Positions 12,343 through 14,346 of a DNA stretch of 64,000 nucleotides are shown one piece after another. The stretch is from assembly GCF_044647545.1 (NCBI RefSeq), contig NZ_CP172818.1, one strand, 5' to 3'. Positions within the stretch are counted from its first letter, which is position 1. Every line of letters begins with the position of its first letter. A program made the position numbers and the translations under genes. The DNA comes from Escherichia coli. GTDB taxonomy: Bacteria > Pseudomonadota > Gammaproteobacteria > Enterobacterales > Enterobacteriaceae. The notes under the pieces are model-generated. The model had not been told where the DNA came from, made no database searches, and saw only the letters and a program-made list of their open reading frames with translations.

Positions 12343-12416
12343 AAGTGGGAATTCTGCTCATCAGAATTATCACCACTACCGAACCATTCTTACCGATTTT
12401 CTGTAAGGATTTTATC

Positions 12417-12785
12417 GTGTCAGACACACTCTCCGGGACAACACATCCCGACGACAATCACGACCACCCCTGGTGGGGACTACCCTGCACCGTGACGCCC
12501 TGTTTCGGCGCCCGTCTGGTGCAGGAGGGTAACCGCTTGCATTACCTTGCCGACCGCGCCGGTAACAGAGGCCTGTTCAGCGATGCAGATGCGTACCCCC
12601 TGGACCAGGCCTTTCCGCTGCTGATGAAACAACTGGAACTCATGCTCACCAGCGGTGAACTGAATCCCCGCCATCAGCATACCGTCACACTGTATGCGAA
12701 GGGGCTGACCTGTGAAGCTGACACCCTCGGCAGCTGTGGTTACGTTTATCTGGCTGTTTATCCGACGCCCGAAACGAAAAATTAA
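12417..12785 (+). CDS. cbeA: Type IV antitoxin CbeA (YeeU), 122 aa, GTG start
   Basis: VSDTLSGTTHPDDNHDHPWWGLPCTVTPCFGARLVQEGNRLHYLADRAG...; track ORF 12345..12785 trimmed to the GTG. Confidence 0.8.
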   Translation: MSDTLSGTTHPDDNHDHPWWGLPCTVTPCFGARLVQEGNRLHYLADRAGNRGLFSDADAYPLDQAFPLLMKQLELMLTSGELNPRHQHTVTLYAKGLTCEADTLGSCGYVYLAVYPTPETKN

Positions 12786-13439: not shown

Positions 13440-13604
13440 GACAATACAGTGATACAGAGTATAATGCCATTAGCCACAGAAAAAAAAAAAAACAGCACTG
13501 TTGTCCTGTATTAAACAGGCAAGAGAAGATATCCATACCCTGCGCCATCTGCAGCTTCTGCACCAGAACCGGTGAATCTCACTCAACAGACTTCATTTCC
13601 CCTG

Positions 13605-13636
13605 ACGCCAGCCTGAATACAGCTGGCGTTTTCATT
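13605..13636 (+). terminator. Intrinsic terminator (acgccagc ctgaatac agctggcgt tttcattt) downstream of yeeW
   Basis: GC-rich stem followed by a T-rich run. Confidence 0.6.
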
Positions 13637-13733
13637 TATATACAGAAAGGAAAACCGATAATAATGGAATGGACGCCCCGACCATGAAGCAACGGTAGGA
13701 TATTACTGATAAACCTTCCAGTGGAGGTGCGTT

Positions 13734-13814
13734 ATGGCCGTTTTAACGATTAGCATTGACCTGACAAAAAATGAATTCCAAATCCACGGTCTGGGTAGGA
13801 ACAGAAAAATCTAA
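13734..13814 (+). pseudogene. 26-codon remnant resembling the N-terminus of an IS110-family transposase
   Basis: MAVLTISIDLTKNEFQIHGLGRNRKI then stop; the ISIDLTK pattern resembles the IGIDxAK start of IS110-type transposases; weak. Confidence 0.25.
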
Positions 13815-13889
13815 GCTCAGAAAACGGATTAAAGTAAGCGTCAACGGAGCACCATATTGACGCTTATTTATTGGTGAGAACTACGTTCC

Positions 13890-14246
13890 ATGGCAGGAGT
13901 TCGTCAACACGGTTGGAGGGCCATTCCGGCAGTATGCTCAGAATATGGCGCAGATACGCTTCCGGATCGATACCGTTCAGACGGCAGGTGCCTGCTTTTC
14001 CGGCAACAAGCAGGAATCTCAGCGCTGAAGCAGGAATTAGAGGTAAAAACGCCCTACCGGGCCATGAATCACCCGGTCATTGGAGTAGTAACCAAAGCAG
14101 ATTTAGCCAGCATGGAACAAATATCTTTGGTGAAATGTTGGTTACGGGAAGCTGGAGCGCACAACGTGTTAGTAACCAGTGCGGTTAATAACAATGGAGT
14201 TACAGAACTTTTTGCCTTGCTGCATACAGAAGAAGGCTGCCGCTAA
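13890..14246 (+). pseudogene. yoeF: C-terminal fragment of an EutP/PduV-family small GTPase
   Basis: ...NHPVIGVVTKADLASMEQISLVKCWLREAGAHNVLVTSAVNNNGVTELFALLHTEE; no P-loop upstream; upstream part of the track ORF is unlikely to be native. Confidence 0.45.
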
Positions 14247-14346
14247 TTTCGATAGGTTCTCAGATGAGAATGATGACGGTGATACACAGATAAGAATCAA
14301 TGAGCAATGAGGGTTGCCGGGCAACCCTCATTGAATAAAACAGGAA

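What the first reader, a model, noticed from the sequence alone, without database searches (positions are those of the whole stretch)
13734..14246. Right flank of the prophage is gene debris: transposase N-terminal stub plus GTPase C-terminal fragment
A 26-codon ORF (MAVLTISIDLTKNEFQIHGLGRNRKI) resembles the start of IS110-family transposases. About 80 bp later comes a C-terminal-only fragment of an EutP/PduV-type GTPase (...VIGVVTKADLAS...VLVTSAVNNNGVTELFALLHTEE) with no P-loop. Together these suggest successive insertions and deletions eroded this end of the island.
Basis: partly seen in the sequence, partly recalled or inferred. Interest (0 to 1): 0.35.

Follow-up and report, generated by a model that had tools for sequence, protein, structure and literature searches.

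The report
Gene debris at CP4-44 island edge
This is ordinary, largely already-annotated genome wreckage at the right edge of the E. coli CP4-44 island: four dead gene fragments (IS110 start, IS66 end, a DUF4942 piece, and the tail of the host's lost propanediol gene pduV) left by successive insertions and deletions.

Summary
The 26-codon ORF (13734-13814) is the 5' end of an IS110-family transposase gene: about 600 E. coli genomes carry a 1029-bp pseudogene starting at the same ATG, and it matches NCBIfam transpos_IS110 (E=1.6e-65). The GTPase piece (14064-14246) is codons 87-147 of pduV, with no P-loop.

Two things were missed, and one interpretation needs correcting:
- Between the two fragments lie a 159-bp end of an IS66-family element on the minus strand (13834-13992, K-12 yoeD) and about 70 bp of the island gene DUF4942 (13993-14063).
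- The pduV tail is not island debris. It is the stump of the host pdu operon. In pdu+ strains an intact pduV sits at this exact spot next to tmaR/yeeX.

The island/chromosome joint is a DUF4942::pduV fusion at an ATGAATC microhomology.

Inferred order of events:
1. An IS110 element inserted at the DUF4942 start codon.
2. It decayed.
3. An IS66 element inserted into it.
4. A deletion of about 3.5 kb removed most of both.

The K-12 "protein" YoeF (118 aa) is an accidental chimera of three of these pieces. The window arrangement is the majority state (3333 of 5426 complete genomes). The finding is ordinary, non-functional and mostly already annotated.

The parts
13576..13662 (+). Island intergenic spacer between the DUF957 fragment (13483-13575) and the former DUF4942 start codon. 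It contains a terminator-like hairpin (stem 13605-13612 / 13622-13629, then TTTTCATTT).
   Evidence: 84-91% identical to sister CP4-type islands up to 13662, where their DUF4942 ATG lies. DUF957 fragment as annotated by PGAP.
13663..13733 (+). Left non-coding end (71 bp) of a decayed IS110-family element. The insertion junction is CCGATAAT|AATGG, with AT repeated at the other junction in strain N1229.
   Evidence: Similarity to sister islands stops at 13662. In N1229 the DUF4942 ATG resumes after 1370 bp (...CCATGT|ATGTCAGAT).
13734..13833 (+). First 100 nt of the IS110-family transposase gene. The 26-codon ORF (13734-13814) is closed by an old frameshift in the A-run GAAAAAT; the coding remnant continues in the +1 frame to 13833.
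   Evidence: Identical to L006 6159-6258. The stitched N1229 pseudogene matches NF033542 at E=1.6e-65 and PF02371/PF01548. tblastn with the Photobacterium transposase. Frame analysis.
13834..13992 (-). Terminal 159 bp of an IS66-family element (K-12 pseudogene yoeD): the inverted repeat beginning GTAAGCG at 13834, and the last 42 codons plus stop of tnpC (13864-13992, minus strand).
   Evidence: PF13817 DDE_Tnp_IS66_C, E=5.3e-16. 98.7% identical to nt 1-159 of a 2378-bp copy flanked by an 8-bp target duplication. PGAP 'transposase, missing N-terminus'. K-12 yoeD.
13993..14063 (+). Internal piece (about nt 119-192) of the island gene DUF4942, in its native reading frame.
   Evidence: Identical to N1229 L006 7570-7640. 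N1229 7458-7657 aligns to nt 1-200 of the DUF4942 gene from its ATG (74%, E=2e-28); the window piece aligns at 80%, E=1e-15. 72-78% hits to annotated DUF4942 genes genome-wide.
14064..14071 (+). Island/chromosome joint ATGAATCA, a microhomology shared by DUF4942 (sister allele ATGAAACA) and pduV (ATGAATCG). This is a deletion junction, not an att site.
   Evidence: Alignments.
14064..14246 (+). 3' stump of the chromosomal pduV gene (codons 87-147 plus stop). It lacks the P-loop and DTPG motif and keeps TKAD. PGAP calls it a 60-aa 'EutP/PduV family' protein.
   Evidence: 97-99% identical to the 3' end of intact pduV at the same locus in E2348/69 and D72. Present in 5417 of 5426 genomes.
13890..14246 (+). 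Accidental chimeric ORF (118 aa, K-12 YoeF): antisense of IS66 tnpC (codons 1-34), then the DUF4942 piece (35-58), then the PduV tail (59-118).
   Evidence: searches (ORF; K-12 yoeF coordinates), and the fragment map.
14247..14346 (.). Conserved pduV-tmaR intergenic spacer with a perfect inverted repeat (14305-14318 / 14320-14333), probably a shared bidirectional terminator.
   Evidence: Read directly from the sequence. Invariant in the window and 7 of the other 10 loci compared; 3-5 differences per 100 nt in K-12, M6 and D72. The simple terminator scan did not call it.

Best explanation
The region 13663-14246 is non-functional debris made of four gene fragments. They mark the joint between the CP4-44 island and the E. 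coli chromosome.

Shown:
(a) The chromosome once carried the pdu operon here, ending in pduV next to tmaR.
(b) The island's DUF4942 gene is fused in frame to pduV codon 87 at an ATGAATC microhomology. A deletion therefore removed the island's right end and the pdu genes.
(c) A 1370-bp IS110-family element is inserted at an AT dinucleotide on the DUF4942 start codon, and has decayed through frameshifts and stops.
(d) In the window lineage, an IS66-family element end abuts IS110 nt 171. Its interior at nt 159 is joined directly to DUF4942 nt ~119.

Inferred:
- The IS66 element inserted whole, with an 8-bp duplication as it did at two other sites in the same pseudogene. A single deletion of about 3.5 kb then removed IS66 nt 160-2378, the rest of IS110 and DUF4942 nt 1-118.
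- None of the fragments encodes a working protein.
- The only feature likely still in use is the hairpin that terminates tmaR.
For: - Locus identity: the window is the E. coli cobU-yeeX/tmaR region (CP4-44 site named in PMC3032704).
- Intact pduV abuts tmaR in pdu+ strains. The identity break is at 14064.
- Less-eroded intermediate: N1229 and AH04 carry the IS110 pseudogene plus a 121-aa fusion ORF.
- IS110 family membership.
- IS66 fragment identity and boundaries.
- DUF4942 origin of the spacer and of the N-terminus of the N1229 ORF.
- Two full-length IS66-family insertions with target duplications at other sites in the same pseudogene.
- State frequencies among 5426 complete genomes: 3333 window type, at least 606 IS110 type, 644-816 pdu+, 498 empty.
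- The empty form lacks 113 bp and 8 bp of flank that the island form shares with pdu+ strains, so it is derived.
- Stub polymorphisms are mostly non-synonymous and the stub's N-terminus differs between arrangements.
Against: - No genome was found with a complete IS66 at the window's own site. Insertion followed by an internal deletion is therefore inferred, not observed. An IS66-mediated adjacent deletion plus a second deletion would give the same end product.
- No pre-deletion genome was found (island with full DUF4942 plus intact pdu).
- The relative order of the IS110 insertion and the DUF4942::pduV deletion is unknown.
- The stub carries no stop or frameshift in the 11 alleles compared. 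Loss of function rests on missing motifs, not on sequence decay.
- No expression data were examined.
Confidence: 0.88

Rival explanations
1. One reading: both the transposase stub and the GTPase fragment are leftovers of genes that belonged to the prophage/island, whose own right end was eroded.
For: The IS110, IS66 and DUF4942 fragments do lie within the island side of the joint. K-12 lists yoeF among CP4-44 region genes (PMC11551758).
Against: Intact pduV, as the last gene of a full pdu operon, occupies the same chromosomal position with the same downstream spacer in strains that have no island between cobU and tmaR. The stub is single-copy and chromosomal in 5417 of 5426 genomes, whereas the island parts are multi-copy. 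The K-12 annotation ends CP4-44 at the base before PduV homology starts.
Confidence: 0.07
2. The PduV tail, as the 60-aa PGAP ORF or the 118-aa YoeF chimera, is an expressed, selected small protein, which would explain its near-universal retention in E. coli.
For: It is present in 99.8% of complete genomes at 95-100% identity and is open in all 11 alleles inspected. PGAP and RefSeq give it protein accessions.
Against: - The adjacent non-coding spacer is at least as conserved as the ORF, and changes in the stub are mostly amino-acid changing.
- The N-terminus and start codon differ between arrangements: 118, 121, 60 and 45 aa.
- The G1 and G3 nucleotide-binding motifs are missing.
- The IS110 insertion separated the DUF4942 start codon from its upstream signals.
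- Retention is explained by the stub's position between a deletion joint and the tmaR terminator.
Confidence: 0.04
3. The island inserted into a pre-existing 'empty' cobU-pduV' deletion joint (M6 type), so the pdu loss is unrelated to the island.
For: 498 genomes have the empty joint. K-12's annotated CP4-44 limits are close to that joint.
Against: Island-bearing genomes retain 113 bp on the left and about 8 bp of pduV on the right that pdu+ strains have and the empty form lacks. A simple insertion cannot restore them. The right joint lies in a DUF4942/pduV microhomology.
Confidence: 0.03

Closest known systems
E. coli K-12 CP4-44 right-end pseudogenes yoeD (b4642) and yoeF (b4538)
   Same: Same locus, same fragments, same order next to tmaR(yeeX)-yeeA-sbmC-dacD. 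yoeD is the minus-strand IS66 tnpC tail and yoeF is the 118-aa ORF.
   Different: The window is another strain, with a few SNPs relative to K-12. K-12 annotates neither the IS110 stub nor the DUF4942 piece, and lists YoeF as a protein rather than a chimera.
PduV (EutP/PduV family small GTPase of the propanediol-utilisation microcompartment operon)
   Same: Residues 87-147 are 97-99% identical in DNA to intact E. coli pduV at the same chromosomal position. Matches PF10662 and TIGR02528.
   Different: Only the C-terminal 41% is present. The P-loop (GPSQCGKT) and DTPG are missing, and the rest of the pdu operon is absent.
IS110-family insertion sequences (NCBIfam NF033542, 'RNA-guided transposase')
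   Same: The syntenic long copy matches the family model end to end. The insertion has no target duplication beyond a shared AT dinucleotide. The window keeps the left end and the first 33 codons, including the first Asp (IDL) of the N-terminal catalytic domain.
   Different: Only 171 of 1370 bp remain in the window. Even the long copies are frameshifted pseudogenes. No guide RNA was identified.
IS66-family elements (ISEc23 / ISEc43 / ISEc47-like)
   Same: Terminal repeat GTAAGCG..., tnpC C-terminal element PF13817, and 94-99% DNA identity to full copies that make 8-bp duplications.
   Different: Only 159 of about 2378 bp remain; tnpA, tnpB and 92% of tnpC are gone.

Membership tests
IS110-family transposase | Full-length match to the family model (N-terminal DEDD/RuvC-like domain plus C-terminal Transposase_20 domain) | tested here: met
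   Met for the syntenic long pseudogene that shares the window's first 100 nt: NF033542 E=1.6e-65, 221 bits against a cut-off of 140, residues 6-328 against profile 2-342/343. PF02371 E=1e-13; PF01548 at 25 bits is below its cut-off.
IS110-family transposase | The window's 26-aa peptide itself is recognisable as the family N-terminus | tested here: inconclusive
   No Pfam hit. tblastn with an intact Photobacterium IS110 transposase aligns residues 1-25 at 44% identity, E=5e-5 in a very small search space. IS621 gave no hit. The assignment rests mainly on synteny.
IS110-family transposase | Insertion without a long target duplication, at a short conserved core | tested here: met
   The uninterrupted sister sequence is CCGATAATGTCAGAC. 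In N1229 the element lies between ...GATAAT and ATGTCAG..., with AT at both joints.
IS110-family transposase | Element-encoded guide (bridge/seek) RNA in a non-coding end | tested here: inconclusive
   No Rfam match at gathering threshold or at E<=1. The 270-bp right end is 73% conserved with a Photobacterium element, but it is deleted in the window.
IS66 family | TnpC C-terminal element and family-typical terminal repeat | tested here: met
   PF13817 E=5.3e-16, 59 bits against a cut-off of 30. The terminus GTAAGCG is aligned to the end of a 2378-bp copy with the 8-bp duplication GAACAATA.
IS66 family | Complete element with tnpA-tnpB-tnpC and both ends | tested here: not met
   Only nt 1-159 are present; identity stops at 13992.
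EutP/PduV family GTPase | Match to the family model | tested here: met
   PF10662 at 47.7 bits against a cut-off of 21, but only profile positions 86-142/143. TIGR02528 at 42 bits is below its full-length cut-off of 138, whereas intact E2348/69 PduV scores 186.
EutP/PduV family GTPase | Nucleotide-binding P-loop (GxxxxGK[ST]) and DxxG motif | tested here: not met
   Intact PduV has GPSQCGKT and DTPG in residues 8-46. The fragment aligns only from residue 87.
EutP/PduV family GTPase | Located in a microcompartment (pdu/eut) operon | tested here: not met
   The window has island and IS fragments upstream. The operon is present at this site only in pdu+ strains.
DUF4942 (CP4-type island gene) | Homology to the gene that follows DUF957 in sister islands | tested here: met
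   DNA: 74% over 201 nt from the ATG (N1229) and 80% over 81 nt (window), plus genome-wide hits to annotated DUF4942 genes. The Pfam domain covers residues 87-275, so the retained N-terminal part lies outside the model.

The most novel reading that the evidence does not exclude
The decayed IS110 element may be a genuine preferred target for other insertion sequences. Three independent IS66-family insertions, all in the same orientation, plus ISEc12 and IS100 insertions, fall within about 1.4 kb. This would imply that IS66-family elements recognise some sequence or structural feature of IS110 DNA, perhaps its conserved 270-bp right end or another structured non-coding region, rather than landing there by chance and being tolerated because the DNA is dead.
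Probability: 0.12. Interest if true: 0.3.

Novelty: already known. Interest (0 to 1): 0.12.

Why it matters
It matters little biologically, because this is dead DNA. Its uses are practical:
- It fixes the true right boundary of CP4-44 as a DUF4942::pduV deletion joint at 14064-14071.
- It shows that the pdu loss in most E. coli is physically tied to this island.
- It shows that the database "proteins" YoeF (118 aa) and the 121-aa and 60-aa "EutP/PduV family" entries are accidental chimeras or stumps. They should be annotated as pseudogenes and dropped from lists of uncharacterised genes.
- The series of states (pdu+, IS110 type, IS66 type, empty) is a convenient lineage marker.

Tried and rejected
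- Pfam on the 26-aa stub alone gave nothing.
- tblastn with the IS621 transposase from strain M6 against the stub and the N1229 pseudogene gave no meaningful hit; it is too distant.
- Rfam on the N1229 locus, at gathering threshold and then at E<=1 on the IS110 element, found no bridge-RNA or other family.
- I first guessed that 13993-14063 was diverged pduV, then that it was the IS110 right end. Both were rejected once it matched the 5' part of DUF4942.
- I first placed the IS66 repeat at 13836. Alignment corrected this to 13834.
- A chimeric probe for a genome with a complete IS66 at the window's own site found none. It found full IS66-family copies at two other sites in the same pseudogene instead.
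- The simple terminator scan missed both hairpins because of its loop and T-run rules.
- Literature searches found only gene lists mentioning yoeF and the named cobU-yeeX site, and no analysis of the fragments.
- I did not use the large protein or metagenome searches because the E. coli genome set answered the question.

Full report
**Locus.** The window is E. coli chromosome. The finding sits between the CP4-44 island genes (yeeR, yeeS, yeeT, cbeA, cbtA, yeeW and a DUF957 fragment) and tmaR(yeeX)-yeeA-sbmC-dacD. The literature names cobU-yeeX as the CP4-44 site (PMC3032704). It lists yoeF among uncharacterised genes of that region (PMC11551758).

The GTPase piece is significant. PF10662 gives E=1.7e-12 but matches only profile positions 86-142 of 143. 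BLASTP against an intact 147-aa E. coli PduV aligns residues 87-147 only. The P-loop GPSQCGKT and the DTPG motif are therefore missing.

The 26-aa stub alone is below detection by Pfam. However, in strains N1229 and AH04 the same ATG opens a 1029-bp "IS110 family (RNA-guided) transposase" pseudogene. Stitched across its frameshifts, that pseudogene matches NF033542 from end to end (E=1.6e-65). An intact Photobacterium IS110 transposase aligns residues 1-25 to the stub and continues in the +1 frame.

The stub's stop codon (13812-13814) is also present in the long pseudogene. It results from a frameshift in an A-run. The real truncation is at 13833/13834.

**What was missed.**
- **IS66 end.** On the minus strand, 13834-13992 is the terminal 159 bp of an IS66-family element. 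It has the terminal repeat starting GTAAGCG and the last 42 codons of tnpC (PF13817 E=5e-16). It is 98.7% identical to nt 1-159 of a 2378-bp copy that has an 8-bp target duplication. This is K-12 pseudogene yoeD.
- **DUF4942 piece.** From 13993 the window is again identical to N1229. That stretch is not pduV. It is the 5' part of the island gene DUF4942. N1229 7458-7657 aligns to nt 1-200 of DUF4942 starting at its ATG, and window 13994-14071 aligns to nt 120-200.

**Origin of the PduV piece.** In E2348/69 and D72 a complete pdu operon ends in a 147-aa pduV that abuts tmaR, with the same spacer and hairpin. DNA identity to the window is 97-99% from 14064 rightwards and collapses to the left of it. 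The stub is single-copy and chromosomal in 5417 of 5426 complete genomes. It is therefore the stump of the host operon, not island cargo.

The joint reads ATGAATCA|CCCGG. A sister DUF4942 allele has ATGAAACA and pduV has ATGAATCG|CCCGG. This indicates a microhomology-mediated deletion that fused DUF4942 to pduV codon 87 in frame. PGAP's 121-aa "EutP/PduV" protein in N1229-type strains is this fusion.

**IS110 element.** Sister islands read CCGATAATGTCAGAC across the DUF957-DUF4942 spacer. In N1229 a 1370-bp element lies between ...GATAAT and ATGTCAG.... This is a simple insertion at an AT core on the DUF4942 start codon. The element has a 71-bp left end, a 1029-bp ORF and a 270-bp right end. 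The right end is as conserved with a Photobacterium element as the ORF is (73%). No Rfam family matches it.

**Route to the window arrangement.** Relative to N1229, 1311 bp (L006 6259-7569) are replaced by the 159-bp IS66 end. Full-length IS66-family elements with target duplications sit at two other positions in the same pseudogene, in the same orientation (C288 and 17-07187).

The most economical history is a complete IS66 insertion at 13833/13834, followed by one deletion of about 3.5 kb running from inside IS66 to DUF4942 nt ~119. This step is inferred. A probe for the undeleted intermediate at this exact site found none, and the 13992|13993 joint shows no microhomology.

**Population picture** (5426 complete genomes).

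| State | Genomes |
|---|---|
| Window (IS66) type | 3333 |
| IS110 type | at least 606 |
| pdu+ | 644-816 |
| "Empty" cobU-stub type | 498 |

The empty form lacks 113 bp on the left and about 8 bp on the right that island strains share with pdu+ strains. It is therefore a later, larger deletion and not the ancestral site.

**Function.** None is expected. YoeF (13890-14246) is an accidental ORF made of antisense IS66, a DUF4942 piece and the PduV tail. Its N-terminus differs between arrangements (118, 121, 60 and 45 aa). Differences in the stub among 11 alleles are mostly non-synonymous, while the neighbouring spacer is at least as conserved. The conserved inverted repeat at 14305-14333 probably still terminates tmaR.

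**Verdict.** This is ordinary genome decay that is largely already annotated (yoeD, yoeF, PGAP pseudogenes). The added value is an exact fragment map and the corrected origin of the PduV piece.

Noticed in passing
L013 2864-5394; L014 3260-5801; L008 and L010 (same locus in other strains); window 13833/13834: The decayed IS110 element has been hit independently by IS66-family elements at three different sites, all in the same orientation. It has also been hit by ISEc12 and IS100. This looks like an IS pile-up or possible hotspot.
   Followed up: partly
L006 7188-7457 versus L015 2074-2319: The 270-bp non-coding right end of the IS110 element is 73% identical to that of a Photobacterium damselae plasmid element, as conserved as the ORF. 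It is a candidate element-encoded guide RNA region. Rfam has no match, and the region is deleted in the window.
   Followed up: partly
window 13890-14246; L006 7458-7823: Database 'proteins' at this locus are artefacts. K-12 YoeF (118 aa) is a triple chimera. The 121-aa 'EutP/PduV family' proteins of about 600 genomes are DUF4942(1-62)::PduV(87-147) fusions.
   Followed up: yes
L004 6818-7071 (strain M6); L002 3940-4061 (K-12): The island-free 'empty' arrangement (498 genomes) is missing 113 bp and 8 bp of chromosomal flank that island-bearing strains retain. It therefore derives from loss of the island rather than preceding it.
   Followed up: yes
L016 26255-28773 (E2348/69): pdu+ E. coli have cobU, a 146-aa remnant ORF, a cobalamin riboswitch and pocR. 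The cbi biosynthetic genes are already deleted while the riboswitch leader survives.
   Followed up: no
window 13479-13491: A run of 13 A residues lies between yeeW and the DUF957 C-terminal fragment. It is a slippage-prone tract in a region where PGAP reports a truncated DUF957 gene.
   Followed up: no
window 12345-12785; L001 5286-5659: The cbtA toxin gene of the island is annotated as frameshifted in the closest-matching genomes (FDAARGOS_497, O157 PV15-279). Its state in the window was not examined.
   Followed up: no
L004 7777-10114 (strain M6): In strain M6 an IS621 (IS110-family) element interrupts yeeA just downstream of tmaR. This is a second, unrelated IS110-family insertion in the neighbourhood.
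   Followed up: no
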